Below are positions 1-55,217 of a stretch of 64,000 nt of DNA, piece by piece (position 1 is the first letter of the stretch; every line of letters starts with the position of its first letter). Both the position numbers and the translations under genes were made by a program. The notes under the pieces were generated by a model that saw nothing but the letters and a program-made list of their open reading frames with translations, was not told the origin of the DNA and ran no database searches. The stretch covers positions 175,584,001 to 175,648,000 of the forward strand of contig OZ024743.1 of the NCBI GenBank assembly GCA_964016885.1, in the 5' to 3' direction. Origin of the DNA: Eledone cirrhosa (taxonomy: Eukaryota).

Positions 1-46
1 TTTTCGGCGGGATCGGATTGAAAATCTAGATGTCTGATTTTGAGTT

Positions 47-125
47 TGTCTCCTGATGAATCCTAACTCAGGACATTCCTATTATTTGGATGTCTAAAAA
101 TAAGGATGAAACCATGGTAGAGATA
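47..125 (+). ncRNA. Type I hammerhead ribozyme (representative copy; repeated once per monomer)
   Basis: Stem I TGTCTC(47-52)/GAGATA(120-125); core CTGATGA(53-59); stem II ATCCT(60-64)/AGGAT(103-107) extended by GGACAT(T)CC/GGATGTCT(71-95); GAAA(108-111); stem III palindrome ACCATGGT(111-118); cleavage triplet GTA(117-119). Confidence 0.9.
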
Positions 126-3100
126 TAATTACGGTATGTACGCATATCTTCTAATTTTAATTTTACACCTAATTGTGTATGGTTGATGATATATTTAGTC
201 AATTTCTACATGCTGTCGAAATGTTGGATAAATTCTCGATTGGGGCCACCGCGAAGAGGCTACGTCCGGTTATTTGTCGGAGATTTCTCCATAAGAGCCT
301 TTCTTCTTATAGCTTGATCTAATTGATTTTTTATATGGTTAATTATGCTAATTAGAAGAAGAAATAGTATATATTTTATCTGATGATTCTAAAGACATGA
401 TTTATGATATATTGCTCTGATTTTTTAATTTATTATTTCTTCATAGAGCTTAAAAGTGACCAGTTGCAACATGTATATATCTATAACTTTATGTATATGT
501 TAACCTTTATATTTAATAATCTCCCAATGCGTTGAGATTAAATTTGGCTGCGCTTTCTAGCAGCAAGCCTACCCGCTGTAAGCAACCAATCACATTCTTT
601 CTGACTTGACCACAGCCACGTAGCGATTCTTAGCCATTTTTTAATCTATTTTCGGCGGGATCGGATTGAAAAACTAGATGTCTGATTATGAGTTTGTCTC
701 CTGATGAATCCTAACTCAGGACATTCCTATTATTTGGATGTCTAAAAATAAGGATGAAACCATGGTAGAGATATAATTACGGTATGTACGCATTTCTTCT
801 AAGTTCAATTTTACACCTAATTGAGTATGGTAGATGATATATTTAGTCAATTTCTACATGCTGTCGAAATGTTGGATAAATTTATGTTTGGGGCCACCGC
901 GAAGAGGCTACGTTCGGTTATTTGTCGGAGATTTCGCCATAAGAGCCTTTCTTCTTATAGCTTGATCTAATTGATTTTTTTATATGGTTAATTATGCTAA
1001 TTAGAAGAAGAAATAGTATATATTTTATCTGATGATTCTAAAGACATGATTTATGATATATTGCTCTGATTTTGTAATTTATTAATTCTTCATGGTGCTT
1101 AAAAGTGACCAGTTGCAACATGTATATATCTATAACTTTATGTATATGTTAACCTTTATATTTAATAATCTTCCGAAAGGTTGAGATTAAATTTGGCGAT
1201 AATTGGCTGAGCTTTCTAGCAGCAAGCCTACCCGCCGTAAGCAAACAATCACATTCTTTCTGGCTTAACCACAGCCACATAGCGATTCTTAGACATTTTT
1301 GAATCTATTTTCGGCGGGATCGGATTGAAAAAATAGATGTCTGATTTTGAGTTTGTCTCCTGATGAATCTAACTCAGGACATTCCTATTATTTGGATGTC
1401 TAAAAATAAGGATGAAACCATGGTAGAGATATAATTACGGTATGTACGCATTTCTTCTGAGTTTAATTTTACACCTAATTGTGTATGGTTGATGATATAT
1501 TTAGTCAATTTCTACATGCTGTCGAAATGTTGGATAAATTCTCGATTGGGACCACCGCGAAGAGGCTACGTTCGGTTATTTGTCGGAGATTTCTCCATAA
1601 GAGCCTTTCTTCTAATAGCTTGATCTAATTGATTTTTTATATGGTTAATTATGCTAATTAGAAGAAGAAATAGTATATATTTTATCTGATGATTCTAAAG
1701 ACATGATTTGTGATATATTGCTCTGATTTTTTAATTTATTAATTCTTCATAGAGCTTAAAAGTGACCAGTTGCAACATGTGTATATCTATAACTTTATGT
1801 ATATGTTAACCTTTATATTTAATAATCTCCCGATGCGTTGAGATTAAATTTGGCTGCGCTTTCTAGCAGCAAGCCTACCCTCCGTAAGCAACCAATCACA
1901 TTCTTTCTGACTTGACCACAGCCACGTAGCGATTCTTAGCCATTTTTGAATCTATTTTCGGCGGGATCGGATTGAAAAACTAGATGACTGATTTTGAGTT
2001 TGTCGCCTGATGAATCCAAACTCAGGACATTCCTATTATTTGGATGTCTAAAAATAAGGATGAAACCATGGTAGAGATATAATTACGGTATGTACGCATA
2101 TCTTCTAATTTTAATTTTACACCTAATTGTGTATGGTTGATGATATATTTAGTTAATTTCTACATGCTGTCGAAATGTTGGATAAATTCTCGTTTGTGGC
2201 CACCGCGAAGAGGCTACGTTCGGTTATTTGTCGGAGAATTCTCCATAAGAGCCTTTCTTCTTATAGCTTGATCTATTTGATTTTTTTATATGGTTAATTA
2301 TGCTAATTAGAAGAAGAAATAGTATATATTTTATCTGATGATTCTAAAGACATGATTTGTGATATATTGCTCTGATTTTTTAATTTATTAATTCTTCATA
2401 GAGCTTAAAAGTGACCAGTTGCAACATGTGTATATCTATAACTTTATGTATATGTTAACCTTTATATTTAATAATCTCACGATGCGTTGAGATTAAATTT
2501 GGCTGCGCTTTCTAGCAGCAAGCCTACCCTCTGTAAGCAACCAATCACATTCTTTCTGACTTGACCACAGCCACGTAGCGATTCTTAGCCATTTTTGAAT
2601 CTATTTTCGGCGGGATCGGATTGAAAAACTAGATGACTGATTTTGAGTTTGTCGCCTGATGAATCCAAACTCAGGACATTCCTATTATTTGGATGTCTAA
2701 AAATAAGGATGAAACCATGGTAGAGATATAATTACGGTATGTACGCATATCTTCTAATTTTAATTTTACACCTAATTGTGTATGGTTGATGATATATTTA
2801 GTTAATTTCTACATGCTGTCGAAATGTTGGATAAATTCTCGTTTGTGGCCACCGCGAAGAGGCTACGTTCGGTTATTTGTCGGAGAATTCTCCATAAGAG
2901 CCTTTCTTCTTATAGCTTGATCTATTTGATTTTTTTATATGGTTAATTATGCTAATTAGAAGAAGAAATAGTATATATTTTATCTGATGATTCTAAAGAC
3001 ATGATTTGTGATATATTGCTCTGATTTTTTAATTTATTAATTCTTCATAGAGCTTAAAAGTGACCAGTTGCAACATGTGTATATCTATAACTTTATGTAT

Positions 3101-6100
3101 ATGTTAACCTTTATATTTAATAATCTCACGATGCGTTGAGATTAAATTTGGCTGCGCTTTCTAGCAGCAAGCCTACCCTCTGTAAGCAACCAATCACATT
3201 CTTTCTGACTTGACCACAGCCACGTAGCGATTCTTAGCCATTTTTGAATCTATTTTCGGCGGGATCGGATTGAAAAACTAGATGACTGATTTTGAGTTTG
3301 TCGCCTGATGAATCCAAACTCAGGACATTCCTATTATTTGGATGTCTAAAAATAAGGATGAAACCATGGTAGAGATATAATTACGGTATGTACGCATATC
3401 TTCTAATTTTAATTTTACACCTAATTGTGTATGGTTGATGATATATTTAGTTAATTTCTACATGCTGTCGAAATGTTGGATAAATTCTCGTTTGGGGCCA
3501 CCGCGAAGAGGCTACGTTCGGTTATTTGTCGGAGAATTCTCCATAAGAGCCTTTCTTCTTATAGCTTGATCTATTTGATTTTTTTATATGGTTAATTATG
3601 CTAATTAGAAGAAGAAATAGTATATATTTTATCTGATGATTCTAAAGACATGGTTTGTGATATATTGCTCTGATTTTGTAATTTATTAATTCTTCATAGA
3701 GCTTAAAAGTGACCAGTTGCAACATGTGTATATCTATAACTTTATGTATATGTTAACCTTTATATTTAATAATCTCCCGATGCGTTGAGATTAAATTTGG
3801 CTGCGCTTTCTAGCAGCAAGCCTACCCTCCGTAAGCAACCAATCACATTCTTTCTGACTTGACCACAGCCACGTAGCGATTCTTAGCCATTTTTGAATCT
3901 ATTTTCGGCGGGATCGGATTGAAAAACTAGATGACTGATTTTGAGTTTGTCGCCTGATGAATCCAAACTCAGGACATTCCTATTATTTGGATGTCTAAAA
4001 ATAAGGATGAAACCATGGTAGAGATATAATTACGGTATGTACGCATATCTTCTAATTTTAATTTTACACCTAATTGTGTATGGTTGATGATATATTTAGT
4101 TAATTTCTACATGCTGTCGAAATGTTGGATAAATTCTCGTTTGGGGCCACCGCGAAGAGGCTACGTTCGGTTATTTATCGGAAATTTCGCCATAAGAGCC
4201 TTTCTTCTTATAGCTTGATCTAATTGATTTTTTTATATGGTTAATTATGCTAATTAGAAGAAGAAATAGTATATATTTTATCTGATGATTCTAAAGACAT
4301 GATTTATGATATATTGCTCTGATTTTGTAATTTATTAATTCTTCATGGTGCTTAAAAGTGACCAGTTGCAACATGTATATATCTATAACTTTATGTATAT
4401 GTTAACCTTTATATTTAATAATCTCCCGATAGGTTGAGATTAAATTTGGCGATAATTGGCTGCGCTTTCTAGCAGCAAGCCTACCCGCCGTAAGCAACCA
4501 ATCACATTCTTTCTGGCTTGACCACAGCCACATAGCGATTCTTAGCCATTTTTGAATCTATTTTCGGCGGGATCGGATTGAAAAACTAGATGTCTGATTT
4601 TGAGTTTGTCGCCTGATGAATCCTAACACAGGACATTCCTATTATTTGGATGTCTAAAAATAAGGATGAAACCATGGTAGAGATATAATTACGGTATGTA
4701 CGCATTTCTTCTAAGTTTAATTTTACACCTAATTGTGTATGGTTGATGATATATTTAGTCCATTTCTATGCTGTCGAAATGTTGGATAATTTCTCGATTG
4801 GGGCCACCGCGAAGAGGCTACGTTCGGTTATTTGTCGGAGATTTCTCCATAAGAGCCTTTCTTCTTATAGCTTGATCTAATTGATTTTTTATATGGTTAA
4901 TTATGCTAATTAGAAGAAGAAATAGTATATATTTTATCTGATGAATCTAATGACATGATTTATGATATATTGCTCTGATTTTGTAATTTATTAATTCTTC
5001 ATGGAGCTTAAAAGTGACCAGTTGCAACATGTATATATCTATAACTTTATGTATATGTTAACCTTTATATTTAATAATCTCCCGAAAGGTTGAGATTAAA
5101 TTTGGCGATAATTGGCTGCGCTTTCTAGCAGCAAGCCTACCCGCCGTAAGCAACTAATCACATTCTTTCTGGCTTGACCACAGCCACATAGCGATTCTTA
5201 GACATTTTTGAATCTATTTTCGGCGGGATCGGATTGAAAAAATAGATGTCTGATTTTGAGTTTGTCTCCTGATGAATCTAACTCAGGACATTCCTATTAT
5301 TTGGATGTCTAAAAATAAGGATGAAACCATGGTAGAGATATAATTACGGTATGTACGCATTTCTTCTAAGTTTAATTTTACACCTAATTGTGTATGGTTG
5401 ATGATATATTTAGTCAATTTCTACATGCTGTCGAAATGTTGGATAAATTCTCGATTGGGACCACCGCGAAGAGGCTACGTTCGGTTATTTGTCGGAGATT
5501 TCTCCATAAGAGCCTTTCTTCTAATAGCTTGATCTAATTGATTTTTTATATGGTTAATTATGCTAATTAGAAGAAGAAATAGTATATATTTTATCTGATG
5601 ATTCTAAAGACATGATTTATGATATATTGCTCTGATTTTTTAATTTATTATTTCTTCATAGAGCTTAAAAGTGACCAGTTGCAACATGTATATATCTATA
5701 ACTTTATGTATATGTTAACCTTTATATTTAATAATCTCCGAATGCGTTGAGATTAAATTTGTCTGCGCTTTCTAGCTAGAAGCCTACCCGTTGTAAGCAA
5801 CCAATCACATTCTTTCTGACTTGACCACAGCCACGTAGCGATTCTTAGCCATTTTTTAATCTATTTTCGGCGGGATCGGATTGAAAAACTAGATGTCTGA
5901 TTATGAGTTTGTCTCCTGATGAATCCTAACTCAGGACATTCCTATTATTTGGATGTCTAAAAATAAGGATGAAACCATGGTAGAGATATAATTACGGTAT
6001 GTACGCATTTCTTCTAAGTTCAATTTTACACCTAATTGAGTATGGTTGATGATATATTTAGTCAATTTCTACATGCTGTCGAAATGTTGGATAAATTTAT

Positions 6101-9100
6101 GTTTGGGGCCACCGCGAAGAGGCTACGTTCGGTTATTTGTCGGAGATTTCGCCATAAGAGCCTTTCTTCTTATAGCTTGATCTAATTGATTTTTTTATAT
6201 GGTTAATTATGCTAATTAGAAGAAGAAATAGTATATATTTTATCTGATGATTCTAAAGACATGATTTATGATATATTGCTCTGATTTTGTAATTTATTAA
6301 TTCTTCATGGTGCTTAAAAGTGACCAGTTGCAACATGTATATATCTATAACTTTATGTATATGTTAACCTTTATATTTAATAATCTTCCGAAAGGTTGAG
6401 ATTAAATTTGGCGATAATTGGCTGAGCTTTCTAGCAGCAAGCCTACCCGCCGTAAGCAAACAATCACATTCTTTCTGGCTTAACCACAGCCACATAGCGA
6501 TTCTTAGACATTTTTGAATCTATTTTCGGCGGGATCGGATTGAAAAAATAGATGTCTGATTTTGAGTTTGTCTCCTGATGAATCTAACTCAGGACATTCC
6601 TATTATTTGGATGTCTAAAAATAAGGATGAAACCATGGTAGAGATATAATTACGGTATGTACGCATTTCTTCTGAGTTTAATTTTACACCTAATTGTGTA
6701 TGGTTGATGATATATTTAGTCAATTTCTACATGCTGTCGAAATGTTGGATAAATTCTCGATTGGGACCACCGCGAAGAGGCTACGTTCGGTTATTTGTCG
6801 GAGATTTCTCCATAAGAGCCTTTCTTCTAATAGCTTGATCTAATTGATTTTTTATATGGTTAATTATGCTAATTAGAAGAAGAAATAGTATATATTTTAT
6901 CTGATGATTCTAAAGACATGATTTGTGATATATTGCTCTGATTTTTTAATTTATTAATTCTTCATAGAGCTTAAAAGTGACCAGTTGCAACATGTGTATA
7001 TCTATAACTTTATGTATATGTTAACCTTTATATTTAATAATCTCCGGATGCGTTGAGATTAAATTTGGCTGCGCTTTCTAGCAGCAAGCCTACCCTCCGT
7101 AAGCAACCAATCACATTCTTTCTGACTTGACCACAGCCACGTAGCGATTCTTAGCCATTTTTGAATCTATTTTCGGCGGGATCGGATTGAAAAACTAGAT
7201 GACTGATTTTGAGTTTGTCGCCTGATGAATCCAAACTCAGGACATTCCTATTATTTGGATGTCTAAAAATAAGGATGAAACCATGGTAGAGATATAATTA
7301 CGGTATGTACGCATATCTTCTAATTTTAATTTTACACCTAATTGTGTATGGTTGATGATATATTTAGTTAATTTCTACATGCTGTCGAAATGTTGGATAA
7401 ATTCTCGTTTGTGGCCACCGCGAAGAGGCTACGTTCGGTTATTTGTCGGAGAATTCTCCATAAGAGCCTTTCTTCTTATAGCTTGATCTATTTGATTTTT
7501 TTATATGGTTAATTATGCTAATTAGAAGAAGAAATAGTATATATTTTATCTGATGATTCTAAAGACATGATTTGTGATATATTGCTCTGATTTTTTAATT
7601 TATTAATTCTTCATAGAGCTTAAAAGTGACCAGTTGCAACATGTGTATATCTATAACTTTATGTATATGTTAACCTTTATATTTAATAATCTCCCGATGC
7701 GTTGAGATTAAATTTGGCTGCGCTTTCTAGCAGCAAGCCTACCCTCCGTAAGCAACCAATCACATTCTTTCTGACTTGACCACAGCCACGTAGCGATTCT
7801 TAGCCATTTTTGAATCTATTTTCGGCGGGATCGGATTGAAAAACTAGATGACTGATTTTGAGTTTGTCGCCTGATGAATCCAAACTCAGGACATTCCTAT
7901 TATTTGGATGTCTAAAAATAAGGATGAAACCATGGTAGAGATATAATTACGGTATGTACGCATATCTTCTAATTTTAATTTTACACCTAATTGTGTATGG
8001 TTGATGATATATTTAGTTAATTTCTACATGCTGTCGAAATGTTGGATAAATTCTCGTTTGGGGCCACCGCGAAGAGGCTACGTTCGGTTATTTGTCGGAA
8101 ATTTCGCCATAAGAGCCTTTCTTCTTATAGCTTGATCTAATTGATTTTTTTATATGGTTAATTATGCTAATTAGAAGAAGAAATAGTATATATTTTATCT
8201 GATGATTCTAAAGACATGATTTATGATATATTGCTCTGATTTTGTAATTTATTAATTCTTCATGGTGCTTAAAAGTGACCAGTTGCAACATGTATATATC
8301 TATAACTTTATGTATATGTTAACCTTTATATTTAATAATCTTCCGAAAGATTGAGATTAAATTTGGCGATAATTGGCTGAGCTTTCTAGCAGCAAGCCTA
8401 CCCGCCGTAAGCAAACAATCGCATTCTTTCTGGCTTGACCACAGCCACGTAGCGATTCTTAGCCATTTTTGAATCTATTTTCGGCGGGATCGGATTGAAA
8501 AACTAGATGACTGATTTTGAGTTTGTCGCCTGATGAATCCAAACTCAGGACATTCCTATTATTTGGATGTCTAAAAATAAGGATGAAACCATGGTAGAGA
8601 TATAATTACGGTATGTACGCATTTCTTCTAAGTTTAATTTTACAGCTAATTGTGTATGGTTGATGATATATTTAGTCAATTTCTACATGCTGTCGAAATG
8701 TTGGATAAATTCTCGATTGGGACCACCGCGAAGAGGCTACGTTCGGTTATTTGTCGGAGATTTCTCCATAAGAGCCTTTCTTCTAATAGCTTGATCTAAT
8801 TGATTTTTTATATGGTTAATTATGCTAATTAGAAGAAGAAATAGTATATATTTTATCTGATGATTCTAAAGACATGATTTGTGATATATTGCTCTGATTT
8901 TTTAATTTATTATTTCTTCATAGAGCTTAAAAGTGACCAGTTGCAACATGTATATATCTATAACTTTATGTATATGTTAACCTTTATATTTAATAATCTC
9001 CGAATTCGTTGAGATTAAATTTGGCTGCGCTTTATAGCAGCAAGCCTACCCGCTGTAAGCAACCAATCACATTCTTTCTGACTTGACCACAGCCACGTAG

Positions 9101-12100
9101 CGATTCTTAGCCATTTTTGAATCTATTTTCAGCGGGATCGGATCGAAAAACTAGATGTCTGATTTTGAGTTTGTCTCCTGATGAATCCTAACTCAGGACA
9201 TTCCTATTATTTGGATGTCTAAAAATAAGGATGAAACCATGGTAGAGATATAATTACGGTATGTACGCATTTCTTCTAAGTTTAATTTCACACCTAATTG
9301 TGTATGGTTGATAATATATTTAGTCAATTTCTACATGCCGTCGAAATGTTGGATAAATTCTCGATTGGGGCCACCGCGAGGAGGCTACGTTCGGTTATTT
9401 GTCGGAGAATTCTCCATAAGAGCCTTTCTTCTTATAGCTTGATCTAATTGATTTTTTTATATGGTTAATTATGCTAATTAGAAGAAGAAATAGTATATAT
9501 TTTATCTGATGATTCTAAAGACATGATTTATGATATATTGCTCTGATTTTTTAATTTATTAATTCTTCATAGAGCTTAAAAGTGACCAGTTGCAACATGT
9601 GTATATCTATAACTTTATGTATATGTTAACCTTTATATTTAATAATCTCCCGATGCGTTGAGATTAAATTTGGCTGCGCTTTCTAGCAGCAAGCCTACCC
9701 TCCGTAAGCAACCAATCACATTCTTTCTGACTTGACCACAGCCACGTAGCGATTCTTAGCCATTTTTGAATCTATTTTCGGCGGGATCGGATTGAAAAAC
9801 TAGATGTCTGATTATGAGTTTGTCTCCTGATGAATCCTAACTCAGGACATTCCTATTATTTGGATGTCTAAAAATAAGGATGAAACCATGGTAGAGATAT
9901 AATTACGGTATGTACGCATTTCTTCTAAGTTTAATTTTACACCTAATTGTGTATGGTTGATGATATATTTAGTCAATTTCTACATGCTGTCGAAATGTTG
10001 GATAAAGTTTTGTTTGGGGCCACCGCGAAGAGGCTACGTTCGGTTATTTGTCGGAGATTTCGCCATAAGAGCCTTTCTTCTTATAGCTTGATCTAATTGA
10101 TTTTTTTATATGGTTAATTATGCTAATTAGAAGAAGAAATAGTATATATTTTATCTGATGATTCTAAAGACATGATTTATGATATATTGCTCTGATTTTG
10201 TAATTTATTAATTCTTCATGGTGCTTAAAAGTGACCAGTTGCAACATGTATATATCTATAACTTTATGTATATGTTAACCTTTATATATAATAATCTCCC
10301 GATAGGTTGAGATTAGATTTGGCGATAATTGGCTGCGCTTTCTAGCATCAAGCCTACCCGCCGTAAGCAACCAATCACATTCTTTCTGGCTTGACCACAG
10401 CCACATAGCGATTCTTAGACATTTTTGAATCTATTTTCGGCGGGATCGGATTGAAAAACTAGATGTCTGATTTTGAGTTTGTCTTCTGATGAACCTAACT
10501 CAGGACATTCCTATTATTTGGATGCCTAAAAATAAGGATGAAACCATGGTAGAGATCTAATTACGGTATGTACGCATTTCTTCTAAGTTTAATTTTACAC
10601 CTAATTGTGTATGGTTGATGATATATTCAGTCAATTTCTACATGCTGTCGAAATGTTGGATAAATTCTCGATTGGGGCCACCGCGAAGAGGCTACGTTCG
10701 GTTATTTGTCGGAGATTTCTCCATAAGAGCCTTTCTTCTTATAGCTTGATCTAATTGATTTTTTATATGGTTAATTATGCTAATTAGAAGAAGAAATAGT
10801 ATATATTTTATCTGATGATTCTAATGACATGATTTATGATATATTGCTCTGATTTTGTAATTTATTAATTCTTCATGGAGCTTAAAAGTGACCAGTTGCA
10901 ACATGTATATATCTATAACTTTATGTATATGTTAACCTTTATATTTAATAATCTTCCGAAAGGTTGAGATTAAATTTGGCGATAATTGGCTGCGCTTTCT
11001 AGCAGCAAGCCTACCCGCCGTAAGCAAACAATCACATTCTTTCTGGCTTGACCACAGCCACATAGCGATTCTTAGACATTTTTGAATCTATTTTCGGCGG
11101 GATCGGATTGAAAAAATAGATGTCTGATTTTGAGTTTGTCTCCTGATGAATCTAACTCAGGACATTCCTATTATTTGGATGTCTAAAAATAAGGATGAAA
11201 CCATGGTAGAGATATAAGTAAGGTATGTACGCATTTCTTCTAAGTTTAATTTTACACCTAATTGTGTATGGTTGATGATATATTTAGTCAATTTCTACAT
11301 GTTGTCGAAAAGTTGGATAAATTCTCGATTGGGACCACCGCGAAGAGGCTACGTTCGGTTATTTGTCGGAGATTTCTCCATAAGAGCCTTTCTTCTAATA
11401 GCTTGATTTAATTGATTTTTTATATGGTTAATTATGCTAATTAGAAGAAGAAATAGTATATATTTTATCTGATGATTCTAAAGACATGATTTGTGATATA
11501 TTGCTCTGATTTTTTAATTTATTATTTCTTCATAGAGCTTAAAAGTGACCAGTTGCAACATGTATATATCTATAACTTTATGTATATGTTAACCTTTATA
11601 TTTAATAATCTCCGAATTCGTTGAGATTAAATTTGGTTGCGCTATATAGCAGCAAGCCTACCCTCCGTAAGCAACCAATCACATTCTTTCTGACTTGACC
11701 ACAGCCACGTAGCGATTCTTAGCCATTTTTGAATCTATTTTCGGCGGGATCGGATTGAAAAAATAGATGTCTGATTTTGAGTTTGTCTCCTGATGAATCT
11801 AACTCAGGACATTCCTATTATTTGGATGTCTAAAAATAAGGATGAAACCATGGTAGAGATATAAGTAAGGTATGTACGCATTTCTTCTAAGTTTAATTTC
11901 ACACCTAATTGTGTATGGTTGATAATATATTTAGTCAATTTCTACATGCTGTCGAAATGTTGGATAAATTCTCGATTGGGGCCACCGCGAGGAGGCTACG
12001 TTCGGTTATTTGTCGGAGAATTCTCCATAAGAGCCTTTCTTCTTATAGCTTGATCTATTTGATTTTTTTATATGGTTAATTATGCTAATTAGAAGAAGAA

Positions 12101-15100
12101 ATAGTATATATTTTATCTGATGATTCTAAAGACATGATTTATGATATATTGCTCTGATTTTTTAATTTATTAATTCTTCATAGAGCTTAAAAGTGACCAG
12201 TTGCAACATGTGTATATCTATAACTTTATGTATATGTTAACCTTTATATTTAATAATCTCCCGATGCGTTGAGATTAAATTTGGCTGCGCTTTCTAGCAG
12301 CAAGCCTACCCTCTGTAAGCAACCAATCACATTCTTTCTGACTTGACCACAGCCACGTAGCGATTCTTAGCCATTTTTGAATCTATTTTCGGCGGGATCG
12401 GATTGAAAAACTAGATGACTGATTTTGAGTTTGTCGCCTGATGAATCCAAACTCAAGACATTCCTATTATTTGGATGTCTAAAAATAAGGATGAAACCAT
12501 GGTAGAGATATAATTACGGTATGTACGCATATCTTCTAATTTTAATTTTACACCTAATTGTGTATGGTTGATGATATATTTAGTTAATTTCTACATGCTG
12601 TCGAAATGTTGGATAAATTCTCGTTTGGGGCCACCGCGAAGAGGCTACGTTCGGTTATTTGTCGGAAATTTCGCCATAAGAGCCTTTCTTCTTATAGCTT
12701 GATCTAATTGATTTTTTTATATGGTTAATTATGCTAATTAGAAGAAGAAATAGTATATATTTTATCTGATGATTCTAAAGACATGATTTATGATATATTG
12801 CTCTGATTTTGTAATTTATTAATTCTTCATGGTGCTTAAAAGTGACCAGTTGCAACATGTATATATCTATAACTTTATGTATATGTTAACCTTTATATTT
12901 AATAATCTCCCGATAGGTTGAGATTAAATTTGGCGATAATTGGCTGCGCTTTCTAGCAGCAAGCCTACCCGCCGTAAGCAACCAATCACATTCTTTCTGG
13001 CTTGACCACAGCCACATAGCGATTGTTAGACATTTTTGAATCTATTTTCGGCGGGATCGGATTGAAAAAATAGATGTCTGATTTTGAGTTTGTCTCCTGA
13101 TGAATCTAACTCAGAACATTCCTATTATTTGGATGTCTAAAAATAAGGATGAAACCATGGTAGAGATATAAGTAAGGTATGTACGCATTTCTTCTAAGTT
13201 TAATTTTACACCTAATTGTGTATGGTTGATGATATATTTAGTCAATTTCTACATGCTGTCGAAAAGTTGGATAAATTCTCGATTGGGACCACCGCGAAGA
13301 GGCTACGTTCGGTTATTTGTCGAAGATTTCTCCATAAGAGCCTTTCTTCTAATAGCTTGATCTAATTGATTTTTTATATGGTTAATTATGCTAATTAGAA
13401 GAAGAAATAGTATATATTTTATCTGATGATTCTAAAGACATGATTTGTGATATATTGCTCTGATTTTTTAATTTATTAATTCTTCATAGAGCTTAAAAGT
13501 GACCAGTTGCAACATGTGTATATCTATAACTTTATGTATATGTTAACCTTTATATTTAATAATCTCCGAATTCGTTGAGATTAAATTTGGCTGCGCTTTA
13601 TAGCAGCAAGCCTACCCGCTGTAAGCAACCAATCACATTCTTTCTGACTTGACCACAGCCACGTAGCGATTCTTAGCCATTTTTGAATCTATTTTCAGCG
13701 GGATCGGATCGAAAAACTAGATGTCTGATTTTGAGTTTGTCTCCTGATGAATCCTAACTCAGGACATTCCTATTATTTGGATGTCTAAAAATAAGGATGA
13801 AACCATGGTAGAGATATAATTACGGTATGTACGCATTTCTTCTAAGTTTAATTTCACACCTAATTGTGTATGGTTGATAATATATTTAGTCAATTTCTAC
13901 ATGCCGTCGAAATGTTGGATAAATTCTCGATTGGGGCCACCGCGAGGAGGCTACGTTCGGTTATTTGTCGGAGAATTCTCCATAAGAGCCTTTCTTCTTA
14001 TAGCTTGATCTAATTGATTTTTTTATATGGTTAATTATGCTAATTAGAAGAAGAAATAGTATATATTTTATCTGATGATTCTAAAGACATGATTTATGAT
14101 ATATTGCTCTGATTTTTTAATTTATTAATTCTTCATAGAGCTTAAAAGTGACCAGTTGCAACATGTGTATATCTATAACTTTATGTATATGTTAACCTTT
14201 ATATTTAATAATCTCCCGATGCGTTGAGATTAAATTTGGCTGCGCTTTCTAGCAGCAAGCCTACCCTCCGTAAGCAACCAATCACATTCTTTCTGACTTG
14301 ACCACAGCCACGTAGCGATTCTTAGCCATTTTTGAATCTATTTTCGGCGGGATCGGATTGAAAAACTAGATGTCTGATTATGAGTTTGTCTCCTGATGAA
14401 TCCTAACTCAGGACATTCCTATTATTTGGATGTCTAAAAATAAGGATGAAACCATGGTAGAGATATAATTACGGTATGTACGCATTTCTTCTAAGTTTAA
14501 TTTTACACCTAATTGTGTATGGTTGATGATATATTTAGTCAATTTCTACATGCTGTCGAAATGTTGGATAAAGTTTTGTTTGGGGCCACCGCGAAGAGGC
14601 TACGTTCGGTTATTTGTCGGAGATTTCGCCATAAGAGCCTTTCTTCTTATAGCTTGATCTAATTGATTTTTTTATATGGTTAATTATGCTAATTAGAAGA
14701 AGAAATAGTATATATTTTATCTGATGATTCTAAAGACATGATTTATGATATATTGCTCTGATTTTGTAATTTATTAATTCTTCATGGTGCTTAAAAGTGA
14801 CCAGTTGCAACATGTATATATCTATAACTTTATGTATATGTTAACCTTTATATATAATAATCTCCCGATAGGTTGAGATTAGATTTGGCGATAATTGGCT
14901 GCGCTTTCTAGCATCAAGCCTACCCGCCGTAAGCAACCAATCACATTCTTTCTGGCTTGACCACAGCCACATAGCGATTCTTAGACATTTTTGAATCTAT
15001 TTTCGGCGGGATCGGATTGAAAAACTAGATGTCTGATTTTGAGTTTGTCTTCTGATGAACCTAACTCAGGACATTCCTATTATTTGGATGCCTAAAAATA

Positions 15101-18100
15101 AGGATGAAACCATGGTAGAGATCTAATTACGGTATGTACGCATTTCTTCTAAGTTTAATTTTACACCTAATTGTGTATGGTTGATGATATATTCAGTCAA
15201 TTTCTACATGCTGTCGAAATGTTGGATAAATTCTCGATTGGGGCCACCGCGAAGAGGCTACGTTCGGTTATTTGTCGGAGATTTCTCCATAAGAGCCTTT
15301 CTTCTTATAGCTTGATCTAATTGATTTTTTATATGGTTAATTATGCTAATTAGAAGAAGAAATAGTATATATTTTATCTGATGATTCTAATGACATGATT
15401 TATGATATATTGCTCTGATTTTGTAATTTATTAATTCTTCATGGAGCTTAAAAGTGACCAGTTGCAACATGTATATATCTATAACTTTATGTATATGTTA
15501 ACCTTTATATTTAATAATCTTCCGAAAGGTTGAGATTAAATTTGGCGATAATTGGCTGCGCTTTCTAGCAGCAAGCCTACCCGCCGTAAGCAAACAATCA
15601 CATTCTTTCTGGCTTGACCACAGCCACATAGCGATTCTTAGACATTTTTGAATCTATTTTCGGCGGGATCGGATTGAAAAAATAGATGTCTGATTTTGAG
15701 TTTGTCTCCTGATGAATCTAACTCAGGACATTCCTATTATTTGGATGTCTAAAAATAAGGATGAAACCATGGTAGAGATATAAGTAAGGTATGTACGCAT
15801 TTCTTCTAAGTTTAATTTTACACCTAATTGTGTATGGTTGATGATATATTTAGTCAATTTCTACATGTTGTCGAAAAGTTGGATAAATTCTCGATTGGGA
15901 CCACCGCGAAGAGGCTACGTTCGGTTATTTGTCGGAGATTTCTCCATAAGAGCCTTTCTTCTAATAGCTTGATTTAATTGATTTTTTATATGGTTAATTA
16001 TGCTAATTAGAAGAAGAAATAGTATATATTTTATCTGATGATTCTAAAGACATGATTTGTGATATATTGCTCTGATTTTTTAATTTATTATTTCTTCATA
16101 GAGCTTAAAAGTGACCAGTTGCAACATGTATATATCTATAACTTTATGTATATGTTAACCTTTATATTTAATAATCTCCGAATTCGTTGAGATTAAATTT
16201 GGTTGCGCTATATAGCAGCAAGCCTACCCTCCGTAAGCAACCAATCACATTCTTTCTGACTTGACCACAGCCACGTAGCGATTCTTAGCCATTTTTGAAT
16301 CTATTTTCGGCGGGATCGGATTGAAAAAATAGATGTCTGATTTTGAGTTTGTCTCCTGATGAATCTAACTCAGGACATTCCTATTATTTGGATGTCTAAA
16401 AATAAGGATGAAACCATGGTAGAGATATAAGTAAGGTATGTACGCATTTCTTCTAAGTTTAATTTCACACCTAATTGTGTATGGTTGATAATATATTTAG
16501 TCAATTTCTACATGCTGTCGAAATGTTGGATAAATTCTCGTTTGGGGCCACCGCGAAGAGGCTACGTTCGGTTATTTGTCGGAAATTTCGCCATAAGAGC
16601 CTTTCTTCTTATAGCTTGATCTAATTGATTTTTTTATATGGTTAATTATGCTAATTAGAAGAAGAAATAGTATATATTTTATCTGATGATTCTAAAGACA
16701 TGATTTATGATATATTGCTCTGATTTTGTAATTTATTAATTCTTCATGGTGCTTAAAAGTGACCAGTTGCAACATGTATATATCTATAACTTTATGTATA
16801 TGTTAACCTTTATATTTAATAATCTCCCGATAGGTTGAGATTAAATTTGGCGATAATTGGCTGCGCTTTCTAGCAGCAAGCCTACCCGCCGTAAGCAACC
16901 AATCACATTCTTTCTGGCTTGACCACAGCCACATAGCGATTGTTAGACATTTTTGAATCTATTTTCGGCGGGATCGGATTGAAAAAATAGATGTCTGATT
17001 TTGAGTTTGTCTCCTGATGAATCTAACTCAGAACATTCCTATTATTTGGATGTCTAAAAATAAGGATGAAACCATGGTAGAGATATAAGTAAGGTATGTA
17101 CGCATTTCTTCTAAGTTTAATTTTACACCTAATTGTGTATGGTTGATGATATATTTAGTCAATTTCTACATGCTGTCGAAAAGTTGGATAAATTCTCGAT
17201 TGGGACCACCGCGAAGAGGCTACGTTCGGTTATTTGTCGAAGATTTCTCCATAAGAGCCTTTCTTCTAATAGCTTGATCTAATTGATTTTTTATATGGTT
17301 AATTATGCTAATTAGAAGAAGAAATAGTATATATTTTATCTGATGATTCTAAAGACATGATTTGTGATATATTGCTCTGATTTTTTAATTTATTAATTCT
17401 TCATAGAGCTTAAAAGTGACCAGTTGCAACATGTGTATATCTATAACTTTATGTATATGTTAACCTTTATATTTAATAATCTCCCGATGCGTTGAGATTA
17501 AATTTGGCTGCGCTTTCTAGCAGCAAGCCTACCCTCCGTAAGCAACCAATCACATTCTTTCTGACTTGACCACAGCCACGTAGCGATTCTTAGCCATTTT
17601 TGAATCTATTTTCGGCGGGATCGGATTGAAAAACTAGATGACTGATTTTGAGTTTGTCGCCTGATGAATCCAAACTCAGGACATTCCTATTATTTGGATG
17701 TCTAAAAATAAGGATGAAACCATGGTAGAGATATAATTACGGTATGTACGCATATCTTCTAATTTTAATTTTACACCTAATTGTGTATGGTTGATGATAT
17801 ATTTAGTTAATTTCTACATGCTGTCGAAATGTTGGATAAATTCTCGTTTGGGGCCACCGCGAAGAGGCTACGTTCGGTTATTTGTCGGAAATTTCGCCAT
17901 AAGAGCCTTTCTTCTTATAGCTTGATCTAATTGATTTTTTTATATGGTTAATTATGCTAATTAGAAGAAGAAATAGTATATATTTTATCTGATGATTCTA
18001 AAGACATGATTTATGATATATTGCTCTGATTTTGTAATTTATTAATTCTTCATGGTGCTTAAAAGTGACCAGTTGCAACATGTATATATCTATAACTTTA

Positions 18101-21100
18101 TGTATATGTTAACCTTTATATTTAATAATCTCCCGATAGGTTGAGATTAAATTTGGCGATAATTGGCTGCGCTTTCTAGCAGCAAGCCTACCCGCCGTAA
18201 GCAACCAATCACATTCTTTCTGGCTTGACCACAGCCACATAGCGATTCTTAGCCATTTTTGAATCTATTTTCGGCGGGATCGGATTGAAAAACTAGATGT
18301 CTGATTTTGAGTTTGTCGCCTGATGAATCCTAACACAGGACATTCCTATTATTTGGATGTCTAAAAATAAGGATGAAACCATGGTAGAGATATAATTACG
18401 GTATGTACGCATTTCTTCTAAGTTTAATTTTACACCTAATTGTGTATGGTTGATGATATATTTAGTCCATTTCTATGCTGTCGAAATGTTGGATAATTTC
18501 TCGATTGGGGCCACCGCGAAGAGGCTACGTTCGGTTATTTGTCGGAGATTTCTCCATAAGAGCCTTTCTTCTTATAGCTTGATCTAATTGATTTTTTATA
18601 TGGTTAATTATGCTAATTAGAAGAAGAAATAGTATATATTTTATCTGATGATTCTAATGACATGATTTATGATATATTGCTCTGATTTTGTAATTTATTA
18701 ATTCTTCATAGAGCTTAAAAGTGACCAGTTGCAACATTTATATATCTATAACTTTATGTATATGTTAACGTTTATATTTAATAATCTCCCGAAAGGTTGA
18801 GATTAAATTTGGCGATAATTGGCTGCGCTTTCTAGCAGCAAGCCTACCCGCCGTAAGCAACTAATCACATTCTTTCTGGCTTGACCACAGCCACATAGCG
18901 ATTCTTAGACATTTTTGAATCTATTTTCGGCGGGATCGGATTGAAAAAATAGATGTCTGATTTTCAGTTTGTCTCCTGATGAATCTAACTCAGGACATTC
19001 CTATTATTTGGATGTCTAAAAATAAGGATGAAACCATGGTAGAGATATAATTACGGTATGTACGCATTTCTTCTAAGTTTAATTTTACACCTAATTGTGT
19101 ATGGTTGATGATATATTTAGTCAATTTCTACATGCTGTCGAAATGTTGGATAAATTCTCGATTGGGACCACCGCGAAGAGGCTACGTTCGGTTATTTGTC
19201 GGAGATTTCTCCATAAGAGCCTTTCTTCTAATAGATTGATCTAATTGATTTTTTATATGGTTAATTATGCTAATTAGAAGAAGAAATAGTATATATTTTA
19301 TCTGATGATTCTAAAGACATGATTTATGATATATTGCTCTGATTTTTTAATTTATTATTTCTTCATAGAGCTTAAAAGTGACCAGTTGCAACATGTATAT
19401 ATCTATAACTTTATGTATATGTTAACCTTTATATTTAATAATCTCCGAATGCGTTGAGATTAAATTTGTCTGCGCTTTCTAGCTAGAAGCCTACCCGTTG
19501 TAAGCAACCAATCACATTCATTCTGACTTGACCACAGCCACGTAGCGATTCTTAGCCATTTTTGAATCTATTTTCGGCGGGATCGGATTGAAAATCTAGA
19601 TGTCTGATTTTGAGTTTGTCTCCTGATGAATCCTAACTCAGGACATTCCTATTATTTGGATGTCTAAAAATAAGGATGAAACCCTGGTAGAGATATAATT
19701 ACGGTATGTACGCATATCTTCTAATTTTAATTTTACACCTAATTGTGTATGGTTGATGATATATTTAGTCAATTTCTACATGCTGTCGAAATGTTGGATA
19801 AATTCTCGATTGGGGCCACCGCGAAGAGGCTACGTCCGGTTATTTGTCGGAGATTTCTCCATAAGAGCCTTTCTTCTTATAGCTTGATCTAATTGATTTT
19901 TTATATGGTTAATTATGCTAATTAGAAGAAGAAATAGTATATATTTTATCTGATGATTCTAAAGACATGATTTATGATATATTGCTCTGATTTTTTAATT
20001 TATTATTTCTTCATAGAGCTTAAAAGTGACCAGTTGCAACATGTATATATCTATAACTTTATGTATATGTTAACCTTTATATTTAATAATCTCCCAATGC
20101 GTTGAGATTAAATTTGGCTGCGCTTTCTAGCAGCAAGCCTACCCGCTGTAAGCAACCAATCACATTCTTTCTGACTTGACCACAGCCACGTAGCGATTCT
20201 TAGCCATTTTTTAATCTATTTTCGGCGGGATCGGATTGAAAAACTAGATGTCTGATTATGAGTTTGTCTCCTGATGAATCCTAACTCAGGACATTCCTAT
20301 TATTTGGATGTCTAAAAATAAGGATGAAACCATGGTAGAGATATAATTACGGTATGTACGCATTTCTTCTAAGTTCAATTTTACACCTAATTGAGTATGG
20401 TTGATGATATATTTAGTCAATTTCTACATGCTGTCGAAATGTTGGATAAATTTATGTTTGGGGCCACCGCGAAGAGGCTACGTTCGGTTATTTGTCGGAG
20501 ATTTCGCCATAAGAGCCTTTCTTCTTATAGCTTGATCTAATTGATTTTTTTATATGGTTAATTATGCTAATTAGAAGAAGAAATAGTATATATTTTATCT
20601 GATGATTCTAAAGACATGATTTATGATATATTGCTCTGATTTTGTAATTTATTAATTCTTCATGGTGCTTAAAAGTGACCAGTTGCAACATGTATATATC
20701 TATAACTTTATGTATATGTTAACCTTTATATTTAATAATCTTCCGAAAGGTTGAGATTAAATTTGGCGATAATTGGCTGAGCTTTCTAGCAGCAAGCCTA
20801 CCCGCCGTAAGCAAACAATCACATTCTTTCTGGCTTAACCACAGCCACATAGCGATACTTAGACATTTTTGAATCTATTTTCGGCGGGATCGGATTGAAA
20901 AAATAGATGTCTGATTTTGAGTTTGTCTCCTGATGAATCTAACTCAGGACATTCCTATTATTTGGATGTCTAAAAATAAGGATGAAACCATGGTAGAGAT
21001 ATAATTACGGTATGTACGCATTTCTTCTGAGTTTAATTTTACACCTAATTGTGTATGGTTGATGATATATTTAGTCAATTTCTACATGCTGTCGAAATGT

Positions 21101-24100
21101 TGGATAAATTCTCGATTGGGACCACCGCGAAGAGGCTACGTTCGGTTATTTGTCGGAGATTCCTCCATAAGAGCCTTTCTTCTAATAGCTTGATCTAATT
21201 GATTTTTTATATGCTTAATTATGCTAATTAGAAGAAGAAATAGTATATATTTTATCTGATGATTCTAAAGACATGATTTGTGATATATTGCTCTGATTTT
21301 TTCATTTATTAATTCTTCATAGAGCTTAAAAGTGACCAGTTGCAACATGTGTATATCTATAACTTTATGTATATGTTAACCTTTATATTTAATAATCTCC
21401 CGATGCGTTGAGATTAAATTTGGCTGCGCTTTCTAGCAGCAAGCCTACCCTCCGTAAGCAACCAATCACATTCTTTCTGACTTGACCACAGCCACGTAGC
21501 GATTCTTAGCCATTTTTGAATCTATTTTCGGCGGGATCGGATTGAAAAACTAGATGACTGATTTTGAGTTTGTCGCCTGATGAATCCAAACTCAGGACAT
21601 TCCTATTATTTGGATGTCTAAAAGTAAGGATGAAACCATGGTAGAGATATAATTACGGTATGTACGCATATCTTCTAATTTTAATTTTACACCTAATTGT
21701 GTATGGTTGATGATATATTTAGTTAATTTCTACATGCTGTCGAAATGTTGGATAAATTCTCGTTTGGGGCCACCGCGAAGAGGCTACGTTCGGTTATTTG
21801 TCGGAAATTTCGCCATAAGAGCCTTTCTTCTTATAGCTTGATCTAATTGATTTTTTTATATGGTTAATTATGCTAATTAGAAGAAGAAATAGTATATATT
21901 TTATCTGATGATTCTAAAGACATGATTTATGATATATTGCTCTGATTTTGTAATTTATTAATTCTTCATGGTGCTTAAAAGTGACCAGTTGCAACATGTA
22001 TATATCTATAACTTTATGTATATGTTAACCTTTATATTTAATAATCTCCCGATAGGTTGAGATTAAATTTGGCGATAATTGGCTGCGCTTTCTAGCAGCA
22101 AGCCTACCCGCCGTAAGCAACCAATCACATTCTTTCTGGCTTAACCACAGCCACATAGCGATTCTTAGCCATTTTTGAATCTATTTTCGGCGGGATCGGA
22201 TTGAAAAACTAGATGTCTGATTTTGAGTTTGTCGCCTGATGAATCCTAACACAGGACATTCCTATTATTTGGATGTCTAAAAATAAGGATGAAACCATGG
22301 TAGAGATATAATTACGGTATGTACGCATTTCTTCTAAGTTTAATTTTACACCTAATTGTGTATGGTTGATGATATATTTAGTCCATTTCTATGCTGTCGA
22401 AATGTTGGATAATTTCTCGATTGGGGCCACCGCGAAGAGGCTACGTTCGGTTATTTGTCGGAGATTTCTCCATAAGAGCCTTTCTTCTTATAGCTTGATC
22501 TAATTGATTTTTTATATGGTTAATTATGCTAATTAGAAGAAGAAATTATATATATTTTATCTGATGATTCTAAAGACATGATTTATGATATATTGCTCTG
22601 ATTTTTTAATTTATTATTTCTTCATAGAGCTTAAAAGTGACCAGTTGCAACATGTATATATCTATAACTTTATGTATATGTTAACCTTTATATTTAATAA
22701 TCTCCGAATGCGTTGCGATTAAATTTGTCTGCGCTTTCTAGCTAGAAGCCTACCCGTTGTAAGCAACCAATCACATTCATTCTGACTTGACCACAGCCAC
22801 GTAGCGATTCTTAGCCATTTTTGAATCTATTTTCGGCGGGATCGGATTGAAAATCTAGATGTCTGATTTTGAGTTTGTCTCCTGATGAATCTAACTCAGG
22901 ACATTCCTATTATTTGGATGTCTAAAAATAAGGATGAAACCATGGTAGAGATATAATTACGGTATGTACGCATTTCTTCTAAGTCTAATTTTACACCTAA
23001 TTGTGTATGGTTGATGATATATTTAGTCAATTTCTACATGCTGTCGAAATGTTGGATAAATTCTCGATTGGGGCCACCGCGAAGAGGCTACGTCCGGTTA
23101 TTTGTCGGAGATTTCTCCATAAGAGCCTTTCTTCTTATAGCTTGATCTAATTGATTTTTTTATATGGTTAATCATGCTAATTAGAAGAAGAAATAGTATA
23201 TATTTTATCTGATGATTCTAAAGACATGATTTATGATATATTGCTCTGATTTTTTAATTTATTAATTCTTCATAGAGCTTAAAAGTGACCAGTTGCAACA
23301 TGTGTATATCTATAACTTTATGTATATGTTAACATTTATATTTAATAATCTCCCGATGCGTTGAGATTAAATTTGGCTGCGCTTTCTAGCAGCAAGCCTA
23401 CCCTCCGTAAGCAACCAATCACATTCTTTCTGACTTGACCACAGCCACGTAGCGATTCTTAGCCATTTTTGAAACTATTTTCGGCGGGATCGGATTGAAA
23501 AACTAGATGACTGATTTTGAGTTTGTCGCCTGATGAATCCGAACTCAGGACATTCCTATTATTTGGATGTCTAAAAATAAGGATTAAACCATGGTAGAGA
23601 TATAATTACGGTATGTACGCATATCTTCTAATTTTAATTTTACACCTAATTGTGTATGGTTGATGATATATTTAGTTAATTTCTACATGCTATCGAAATG
23701 TTGGATAAATTCTCGTTTGGGGCCACCGCGAAGAGGCTACGTTCGGTTATTTGTCGGAGATTTCTCCATAAGAGCCTTTCTTCTTATAGCTTCATCTAAT
23801 TGATTTTTTATATGGTTAATTATGCTAATTAGAAGAAGAAATAGTATATATTTTATCTGATGATTCTAAAGACATGATTGATGATATATTGCTCTGATTT
23901 TGTAATTTATTAATTCTTCATGGAGCTTAAAAGTGACCAGTTGCAACATGTATATATCTATAACTTTATGTATATGTTAACCTTTATATTTAATAATCTC
24001 CCGATAGGTTGAGATTAAATTTGGCGATAATTGGCTGCGCTTTCTAGCAGCAAGCCTACCCGCCGTAAGCAACCAATCACATTCTTTCTGGCTTGACCAC

Positions 24101-24135
24101 AGCCACAGAGCGATTCTTAGACATTTTTGAATCTA

Positions 24136-52884: not shown

Positions 52885-52963
52885 TGTCTCCTGATGAATC
52901 CTAACTCAGGACATTCCTATTATTTGGATGTCTAAAAATAAGGATGAAACCATGGTCGAGACA
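52885..52963 (+). ncRNA. Type I hammerhead ribozyme, canonical GUC variant with perfect stem I
   Basis: TGTCTC-CTGATGA-ATCCT...AGGAT-GAAA-CCATG-GTC-GAGACA. GUC triplet at 52955-52957 and a fully Watson-Crick TGTCTC/GAGACA stem I. Confidence 0.92.
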
Positions 52964-54625
52964 TAATTACGGTATGTACGCATTTCTCCTAAGTTTAATT
53001 TTACACCTAATTGTGTATGGTTGATGATATATTTAGTCAATTTCTACATGCTGTCGAAATGTTGGATAAATTCTCGATTGGGGCCACCGCGAAGAGGCTA
53101 CGTTCGGTTATTTGTCGGAGATTTCTCCATAAGAGCCTTTCTTCTTATAGCTTGATCTAATTGATTTTTTATATGGTTAATTATGCTAATTAGAAGAAGA
53201 AATAGTATATATTTTATCTGATGATTCTAAAGACATGATTTATGATATATTGCTCTGATTTTTTAATTTATTATTTCTTCATAGAGCTTAAAAGTGACCA
53301 GTTGCAACATGTATATATCTATAACTTTATGTATATGTTAACCTTTATATTTAATAATCTCCCGATAGGTTGAGATTAGGTATGGCGATATTTGGCTGCG
53401 CTTTCTAGCAGCAAGCCTACCCGCCGTAAGCAACCAATCACATTCTTTCTGACTTGACCACAGCCACATAGCGATTCTTAGCCATTTTTGAATCTATTTT
53501 CGGCGGGATCATATTGAAAAACTAGATGTCTGATTTCTGTGTTTGTCTCCTGATGAATCCTAACTCAGGACATTCCTATTATTTGGATGTCTAAACATAA
53601 GGATGAAACCAAGGTAGAGATATAATTACGGTATGTACGCATTTATTCTAATTTTAATTTTACACCTAATTGTCTATGGTTGATGATATATTTAGTCCAT
53701 TTCTACATGCTGTCGAAATGTTGGATAAATTCTCGATTATGGACACCGCGAAGAGGCTACGTTCGGTTATTTGTCGGAGATTTCTCCATAAGAGCCTTTC
53801 TTCTTATAGCTTGATCTAATTGATTTTTTATATGGTTAATTATGCTAATTAGAAGAAGAAATAGTATATATTTTATCTGATGATTCTAAAGACATGATTT
53901 ATGATATATTGCTCTGATTTTTTAATTTATTATTTCTTCATAGAGCTTAAAAGTGACCAGTTGCAACATGTATATATCTATAACTTTATGTATATGTTAA
54001 CCTTTATATTTAATAATCTCCCGATAGGTTGAGATTAGGTATGGCGATATTTGGCTGCGCTTTCTAGCAGCAAGCCTACCCGCCGTAAGCAACCAATCAC
54101 ATTCTTTCTGACTTGACCACAGCCACATAGCGATTCTTAGCCATTTTTGAATCTATTTTCGGCGGGATCATATTGAAAAACTAGATGTCTGATTTCTGTG
54201 TTTGTCTCCTGATGAATCCTAACTCAGGACATTCCTATTATTTGGATGTCTAAACATAAGGATGAAACCAAGGTAGAGATATAATTACGGTATGTACGCA
54301 TTTATTCTAATTTTAATTTTACACCTAATTGTCTATGGTTGATGATATATTTAGTCAATTTCTACATGCTGTCGAAATGTTGGATAAATTCTCGATTGGG
54401 GCCACCGCGAAGAGGCTATGTTCGGTTATTTGTCGGAGATTTCTCCATAAGAGCCTTTCTTCTTATAGCATGATCTAATTGATTTTTTATATGGTTAATT
54501 ATGCTAATTAGAAGAAGAAATAGTATATATTTTATCTAAATGATTTTATCTGATATATTTTATCTGATATATATTTTATCTAAATGATTTTATCTGATGA
54601 TTCTAAAGACATGATTTATGATATA

Positions 54626-54663
<38 letters not shown>

Positions 54664-55126: not shown

Positions 55127-55217
55127 TATCAAGCTAAAATTCCTTTAGTTAAAAATACGGCGAAAGCTATATATTTTCTAATTTCAAACTCGCTCACTGT
55201 TTCAAAACATACTTACT

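What the first reader, a model, noticed from the sequence alone, without database searches (positions are those of the whole stretch)
108..119. Palindromic mini stem III (ACCAUGGU) implies cleavage as a dimeric hammerhead between neighbouring monomers
Seen: stem III is only 2-3 bp with a 2-4 nt loop, but the 8-mer ACCATGGT is self-complementary. Established: HHRs with short palindromic stem III (PLE-type minimal HHRs, newt satellite 2) cleave better as double hammerheads. Inference: tandem organisation supplies the partner in cis, so catalysis would depend on multimeric transcripts, linking array architecture to ribozyme activity.
Basis: partly seen in the sequence, partly recalled or inferred. 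Interest (0 to 1): 0.75.

Follow-up and report, generated by a model that had tools for sequence, protein, structure and literature searches.

The report
Dimer-type hammerhead in Penelope-mobilised retrozyme
This short palindrome sits in a hammerhead (self-cutting RNA) motif repeated every 650 bases, and it likely lets two neighbouring copies pair and cut together; that design is already published, but here scattered genomic copies that start exactly at the predicted cut suggest the ribozyme really cuts in the animal.

Summary
Real but mostly known. The window holds 84 type I hammerheads in a ~650-bp tandem array; 79 carry ACCATGGT and the five named variants are where stated. Helix III is one C-G pair plus a palindromic CAUG loop, the class that in axolotl cleaves far better as a dimer. 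Support found here: across 24 hammerhead clusters in this genome, 15 helix-III inserts are perfect palindromes of 12 different sequences. Against or neutral: the 8-mer is no better conserved in the array than other 8-mers, no informative covariation exists within the family, a predicted loop I-II pseudoknot could stabilise a monomer, and ACCATGTT cannot tell monomer from dimer. New here: the unit is a Penelope-mobilised retrozyme whose dispersed copies begin at the predicted cut (9 of 67 arms within 6 nt, 0.7 expected; 13 genome-wide exactly there), indirect evidence of cleavage in vivo. Dimer dependence itself is untested. The scan reported similar retrozyme families, end patterns and palindromes before, in this and other genomes.

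The parts
108..119 (+). GAAA core, helix III and GUA triplet; palindromic 8-mer at 111-118 (C112-G117 pair closing loop 113-116)
47..125 (+). First type I hammerhead: helix I 47-52/120-125, CTGATGA 53-59, helix II 60-64/103-107
   Evidence: sequence; fold; pair counts
119..120 (+). Predicted cleavage site (after GUA); dispersed genomic copies begin at 120
   Evidence: controls
42..45 (+). 5' strand of candidate loop I-loop II pseudoknot (pairs with 66-69)
   Evidence: one change on both sides in the sister subfamily; inferred
66..69 (+). 3' strand of candidate pseudoknot, in the internal loop of helix II
   Evidence: inferred
71..95 (+). Extra hairpin on top of helix II
   Evidence: fold; also pairable in the sister subfamily (by eye)
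394..412 (+). Fixed 3' end site 1 of dispersed copies (unit position 412/413), joined to (AT)n; inferred internal start of reverse transcription
   Evidence: 102 of 158 arms end here (sample largely chosen on this end); most arms, which was not chosen on it
500..515 (+). Fixed 3' end site 2 (unit position 515/516), mostly on the opposite arm
   Evidence: 33 of 158 arms
1..54626 (+). Tandem array, 83 whole units of 640-659 bp, mean identity 96.7%, with higher-order repeats; continues 12.4 kb upstream of the window (19 more hammerheads) to a short inverted arm
19681..19688 (+). Loop-only variant ACCCTGGT (discriminating)
47731..47738 (+). Variant ACCATGTT (also 49692); breaks C15.2-G16.2, not discriminating
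53608..53615 (+). Loop-only variant ACCAAGGT (also 54267); the two last units, adjacent
54621..54659 (.). (AT)n tract at the array's 3' end, the insertion target

Best explanation
The palindrome is helix III of a type I hammerhead in a ~650-bp non-coding tandem element that is likely copied by Penelope-type reverse transcriptase, and it likely works by pairing with the same palindrome in the next unit of a read-through transcript, so that two weak ribozymes swap strands and each is cut after GUA. Shown: the motif, the array, the dispersed copies with fixed 3' ends in (AT)n, and a pile-up of 5' ends at the cut site. Inferred: transcription, cleavage in vivo, the double-hammerhead fold, ligation of unit-length RNA to circles whose single hammerhead stays off, and reverse transcription from two internal start sites, which stops at the cut end of a linear RNA (about 1 pass in 7) or runs through it on a circular or uncut RNA.
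For: Helix III = 1 bp + palindromic tetraloop, as in axolotl HHR_Amex1 (6% cleavage as monomer, much more as dimer; PMC7229834 passages). Energy: hairpin +2.9 vs self-duplex -11.2 kcal/mol; the cis double fold is nested and costs 8.9-11.2 kcal/mol less than two single folds in 6 of 6 wild-type pairs, only 1.6 less for the CCAAGG/CCAAGG pair. Unconstrained scan of 254 sequences (1.0 Mb): 39 clusters, 24 with even 4-8-nt inserts, 15 perfect palindromes (12 sequences), 17 with G-U allowed, central two bases complementary in 19 of 24 vs 28% expected; 0 motifs in the reversed control. Genome pattern: 97,749 matches vs 3,308 control; of the first 100 listed, my hand tally gives 64 perfect and 21 G-U palindromes. 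Cleavage: 9 of 67 arms end within 6 nt of the site, 0.70 expected; 16 junctions genome-wide at 118-120, 13 exactly at 120, 5 at 121-122, 0 at an upstream control. Circular monomers are predicted to bury the ribozyme (3 of 3).
Against: No cleavage assay and no RNA data. In the array the 8-mer is intact in 78 of 83 units, and 307 of 649 8-mers do as well or better. The sister subfamily keeps CCATGG, but at 76% identity that has about 19% chance. Genome-wide double changes in the family: one palindrome-keeping event in a decayed array among CCATGG neighbours and two palindrome-breaking copies, so no usable covariation. The double fold beats the cheaper one-site single fold in only 3 of 10 pairs (1 tie, 6 worse). 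The clusters are not fully independent. The 5' pile-up proves nothing about monomer versus dimer; 4-6 of the 9 ends lie at 123-126, where AT microhomology or a stall could act. Only 40 of 84 copies are intact and 16 of 83 neighbour pairs both intact.
Confidence: 0.62

Rival explanations
1. Extended monomer: a Watson-Crick pseudoknot between the helix II internal loop (66-69) and the strand 5' of helix I (42-45) docks helices I and II, so one hammerhead cleaves on its own; the palindrome is inherited or only an aid.
For: The 4-bp contact has a change on both sides in the sister subfamily. Pseudoknots commonly give fast cleavage (PMC3088659 passages). Newt motifs cleave as monomers given helix I extensions (PMC6155905); coral and mussel single motifs cleave at 0.8 and 0.1 per min.
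Against: One compensatory event only. The contact is compatible with the dimer too. Axolotl Amex1 has all loop contacts and is still weak as a monomer. It does not explain central-loop complementarity in 19 of 24 clusters.
Confidence: 0.15
2. Protein-assisted cleavage: the RNA alone is nearly inactive in either form and the Penelope protein (or another chaperone) bound near the RT start sites switches it on, possibly by bringing two RNAs together.
For: The Anolis PLE hammerhead cleaves only with protein, and that protein is modelled as a dimer (PMC11167929 passages). PLE hammerheads are slow even as dimers; 8 of 9 Xenopus dimers did not cleave. All active folds here cost energy over the ensemble. 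Two-armed insertions share subfamily alleles (451 of 497 sites).
Against: No direct evidence for this family; the partner PLE was not identified. Not exclusive with the dimer fold.
Confidence: 0.13
3. Dimer in trans: two separate transcripts or circles pair through the palindrome, so tandem layout is not needed.
For: A swapped dimer of two isolated domains is 5.5 kcal/mol below two free domains at standard state. Only 4 of 87 sampled dispersed insertions hold two hammerheads on one strand.
Against: 5.5 kcal/mol is lost at micromolar concentration (inference); circles are predicted to bury helix I.
Confidence: 0.07
4. The motif is a dead or chance palindrome amplified as satellite DNA, with no cleavage role.
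For: The array itself drifts: 36 of 84 copies have a helix I mismatch, 2 a core mutation; the 8-mer is not specially conserved.
Against: 5' ends pile up at the exact cut site; helices I and II covary between sublineages. This may describe the present array but not the element.
Confidence: 0.03

Closest known systems
Amphibian retrozyme hammerheads (axolotl HHR_Amex1, newt satellite 2; PMC7229834 passages and Results part 1 of 3; PMC6155905 passages)
   Same: Type I, one-pair helix III with palindromic tetraloop, in tandem non-coding repeats of low GC.
   Different: Invertebrate-looking genome (most invertebrate retrozyme motifs were reported efficient as monomers); unit ~650 bp vs 330-350; helix II carries a 38-nt insert with an extra hairpin and a candidate pseudoknot.
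Metazoan non-LTR retrozymes (PMC7229834; preprint 10.64898/2026.07.22.740005, part 1 of 5 and passages)
   Same: Tandem units with one type I hammerhead, dimers to large multimers, no coding frame sought or expected, link to Penelope-like elements.
   Different: Unit longer than the 170-450 nt described; here two fixed 3' ends, two-armed insertions and 5' ends at the cut site are visible. Expression and circles not shown here.
Hammerheads in pseudo-LTRs of Penelope-like elements (PMC4209133, PMC6765202, PMC8557442, PMC11167929, PMC3088659 Fig. S8 legend; passages)
   Same: Palindromic helix III proposed or shown to work as dimers; 5' truncation, partial tandems, inverted 5' copy, tail at one end, (TA)n targets, internal RT start.
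   Different: Not a minimal motif (helix I 6 bp, long helix II); no ORF between the repeats; tail difference 103 nt rather than 30-40; in the Anolis PLE no RNA reads ended at the cut site, whereas here genomic copies do.

Membership tests
Type I hammerhead ribozyme | CUGANGA, GAAA and NUH core with helices I-III in type I order | tested here: met
   Sequence and fold; 40 of 84 copies intact; pair counts
Type I hammerhead ribozyme | Match to an Rfam hammerhead model | tested here: not met
   No hammerhead hit at gathering score or E<=10; RF00163 has 45 positions and this motif has a 38-nt insert
Type I hammerhead ribozyme | Self-cleavage after NUH | tested here: inconclusive
   No assay possible; indirect genomic support from 5' ends at position 120
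Dimeric (double) hammerhead | Very short helix III with self-complementary sequence | tested here: met
   79 of 84 copies; energies
Dimeric (double) hammerhead | Palindrome kept by covariation | tested here: inconclusive
   Across clusters in the genome yes; within this family no informative change
Dimeric (double) hammerhead | Two-copy RNA cleaves much faster than one-copy RNA | not testable with these tools
   Needs in vitro transcription
Non-LTR retrozyme | Tandem repeats, each with a type I hammerhead, dispersed in the genome | tested here: met
Non-LTR retrozyme | Unit of about 150-450 bp | tested here: not met
   640-659 bp; descriptive range, and the 2026 preprint searched periods up to 1000
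Non-LTR retrozyme | Expressed as linear and circular unit-length RNA | not testable with these tools
   No RNA run was available for this stretch
Penelope-type mobilisation | Fixed 3' ends, variable 5' truncation, inverted 5' arm, (TA)n target | tested here: met
Penelope-type mobilisation | Sequence shared with the pseudo-LTR of an autonomous element | not tested
   No partner element was searched for; the broken RT frames at 57.6-59.9 kb were not linked to the unit

The most novel reading that the evidence does not exclude
The genome records the ribozyme's duty cycle in vivo: a one-pair-helix-III hammerhead with a Watson-Crick loop I-II pseudoknot cuts only when paired with its neighbour through a family-typical palindrome, the released unit is circularised and thereby silenced, and Penelope reverse transcriptase copies both linear cut monomers (about 1 in 7 passes stop at the cut) and circles from two internal start sites. 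That would be in vivo evidence for dimer-gated cleavage in a Penelope-type ribozyme, for which published RNA data showed no cut ends.
Probability: 0.3. Interest if true: 0.55.

Novelty: new member of a known kind. Interest (0 to 1): 0.3.

Why it matters
The dimer idea is old and the palindrome is typical, so the finding as posed adds little. What is useful is the test bed: a young family with hundreds of dispersed copies whose 5' ends mark the cut site, natural loop-only variants in adjacent units (53608, 54267) and natural core mutants (near 23588, 45770). It makes two open questions testable in one system: whether Penelope-associated hammerheads cut in vivo, and whether dimer dependence is what protects the unit-length circle.

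Tried and rejected
Rfam scans found no hammerhead in the window; RF00163 on the genome gave 74 other matches, of little use here. No RNA holder listed; three runs of unrecorded kind, one sample, contigs only, showed presence and nothing on ends. Within-array conservation as proof of selection: rejected. Within-family covariation of the palindrome: not found. Circle versus multimer template: copies within an insertion agree at 1351 of 1453 diagnostic sites vs 56% between insertions, but window neighbours also agree at 93%, so the test does not separate the two; no stop at the second upstream cut site, 0 of 7 at risk, too few. The downstream junction control (1 match) is weak because its 19-mer is exact in only 17 of 82 sampled copies. 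A second CTGATGA at unit position ~380 as a ribozyme core: rejected, changed in the sister subfamily. One search split the units wrongly and one search used a mis-registered structure; both discarded. One of 11 pairs and the last part failed. Lunse et al. 2017 and Epstein and Pabon-Pena 1991 were not held; known only through reviews and reference lists.

Full report
1. Observation. Positions 108-119 read GAAA-CCATGG-TA. The 8-mer occurs 79 times on + against 0.40 expected. Splitting on a conserved anchor gives 84 hammerheads and 83 whole units of 640-659 bp, 96.7% mean identity, 56 distinct. Around the motif lies a full type I hammerhead: helix I 47-52/120-125, CTGATGA 53-59, helix II 60-64/103-107 carrying an internal loop and an extra hairpin, cut site after A119. 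Rfam misses it. In an alignment of 5 sequences from three sublineages, 92% of 78 cells pair and 4 of 16 pairs change on both sides, against 27-43% for slid partners. Helix III is best read as A15.1-U16.1 plus one C-G pair and a CAUG loop.

2. What the repeat is. The unit is dispersed through the 3.0-Gb genome (79 matches from 20 scored of 4,680 candidates; 476 matches to a 30-base pattern; 233 exact 3' ends). I fetched 91 of the 100 listed 3'-end places. Of 158 arms mapped, 102 end at unit position 413 and 33 at 516, both into (AT)n; 5' ends vary and many insertions have a second, inverted arm. These are the marks described for Penelope-like elements (PMC8557442 and PMC11167929, passages). The window's array is one such insertion: it starts 12.6 kb upstream with a 222-bp inverted arm, holds 19 + 84 hammerheads and ends at 413 into (AT)n. 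It shows recurring three-unit patterns and decay: 40 of 84 intact, 12 fully consensus. I infer later DNA-level expansion. Of 87 sampled dispersed insertions, 40 hold no whole hammerhead per arm, 43 one and 4 two.

3. Does it cut? In the sample chosen only on its 3' end (L021-L109, two duplicates dropped), 67 arms reach to within 6 nt of the cut site and 9 stop there; the background rate predicts 0.70 (Poisson p about 6e-8), and no other 7-nt window has more than 5. A genome-wide pattern for copies lacking the upstream palindrome gave 17 matches: 1 internal deletion and 16 junctions, 13 exactly at 120 (p about 1e-4 against an even spread over 118-120). Junctions at 121-122 number 5; an upstream control gave 0 (its 19-mer is exact in 26 of 49 sampled copies vs 46 of 69); a weak downstream control gave 1. 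I infer that cut RNA served as template. The other 58 of 67 arms run through an intact site, so most templates were circles or uncut multimers; cannot separate these. In the Anolis PLE study no RNA reads ended at the cut. Two searches listed no paper reporting such a junction pile-up for retrozymes; supplements of the retrozyme papers were not seen, and scan note e1-8803865 reports a like pattern for another family.

4. Monomer or dimer? Energy models: the lone hairpin costs +2.9 kcal/mol, the self-duplex gives -11.2, loop variants -4.5 to -4.7 with themselves and -6.8 with wild type. In two-unit RNA the swapped fold is nested, and it beats two single folds in 10 of 10 pairs (8.9-11.2 kcal/mol for six wild-type pairs, 6.5 and 9.0 for mixed pairs, 1.6 for the CCAAGG pair), but beats the cheaper one-site fold in only 3 of 10. 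These models ignore tertiary contacts, so they show feasibility only. Comparative evidence: within the array the 8-mer is ordinary (307 of 649 windows as conserved). A sister subfamily, 76% identical, changes helices I and II and keeps CCATGG, which is not significant alone. Double changes in the family are 2 CCTAGG matches from one event and 2 CTATTG copies. Across the genome the signal is strong: with no constraint on the insert, 15 of 24 clusters with even 4-8-nt inserts are perfect palindromes, and the two central bases, which cannot pair in a lone hairpin, are complementary in 19 of 24 against 28% expected; 15 clusters with odd or longer inserts were set aside, and clusters are partly related. 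A hand tally of the first 100 of 97,749 pattern matches gives 64 perfect palindromes, 21 with G-U, 5 one-mismatch variants and 10 others. So palindromic helix III is the rule in this genome's hammerheads, which is what selection for a symmetric swap predicts.

5. Rivals. A 4-bp contact between 42-45 and 66-69 has one change on both sides in the sister subfamily; such pseudoknots speed cleavage (PMC3088659 passages), and newt motifs can cut as monomers (PMC6155905 passages). It fits both folds, since both strands come from the same unit. Protein assistance is shown for the Anolis PLE motif. Pairing in trans is modestly favourable at standard state. Circles are predicted to bury helix I whatever helix III does (3 of 3), so protection of the circle need not come from dimer dependence.

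6. What is known. PMC4209133 (passages) states that metazoan type I motifs usually have a 1-2 bp helix III with a palindromic loop and fold as dimers in tandem repeats. PMC6765202 (passages) says the tandem layout may help adjacent motifs dimerise. PMC7229834 (passages and Results part 1 of 3) measured the monomer-dimer difference in axolotl. PMC3088659's Fig. S8 legend lists palindromic helix III across species. The 2026 preprint (part 1 of 5 and passages) ties retrozymes to Penelope elements. Lunse 2017 and Epstein 1991 were seen only as citations. The scan has noted related families and the same reading before; none of its notes matched this sequence.

7. Verdict. Observation confirmed; interpretation partly supported, probably right in mechanism (0.62), overstated as to the array, and already published. 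It works like the axolotl and newt dimer hammerheads and is filed as a new, unusually long non-LTR retrozyme, with expression and cleavage rate untested. Interest 0.3, carried by the genomic trace of cleavage and the ready-made natural variants.

Noticed in passing
window 57641-60023 (-): Broken reading frames of a retroelement: weak RVT_1 match (E 0.0087) and, by eye, a GIY-YIG-like C-terminal part; looks like a decayed Penelope-like element (recalled pattern). Not linked to the array.
   Followed up: partly
window 61040-61085 (+): Decayed minimal hammerhead (CTGATGA, short helix II, damaged GAAA) near a repeat end shared with 59950-60070.
   Followed up: no
window 63870-63920 (+): Another type I hammerhead with a 14-nt helix III insert (3 bp plus 8-nt loop); the same family occurs in L029 and L083. 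A monomer-type contrast case.
   Followed up: partly
window 54758-55220: Inverted pair of tRNA-like sequences (Rfam tRNA 41.9 and 33 bits) forming a two-armed insertion between (AT)n tracts right after the array.
   Followed up: no
window 55300-56200: A second long inverted-repeat insertion between (AT)n tracts.
   Followed up: no
window 52949-52964: One unit has a GUC triplet and a G-C pair in helix I instead of GUA and G-U.
   Followed up: no
genome-wide: About 98,000 matches to one hammerhead pattern vs 3,300 control; many lie as close inverted pairs.
   Followed up: partly
dispersed copies, e.g. L004-L019: Most dispersed copies have A instead of T at position 11.1 (A-A mismatch at the base of helix II), whereas the window's array has A-U.
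   Followed up: no
window 62000-63500: SINE-like repeats that resemble an octopod repeat (recalled, from no call).
   Followed up: no
L238/L242 (C4:42.64-42.66 Mb) and C1:92.99-93.02 Mb: Other long arrays of the same family and its sister subfamily, also with higher-order repeats and decayed motifs.
   Followed up: partly
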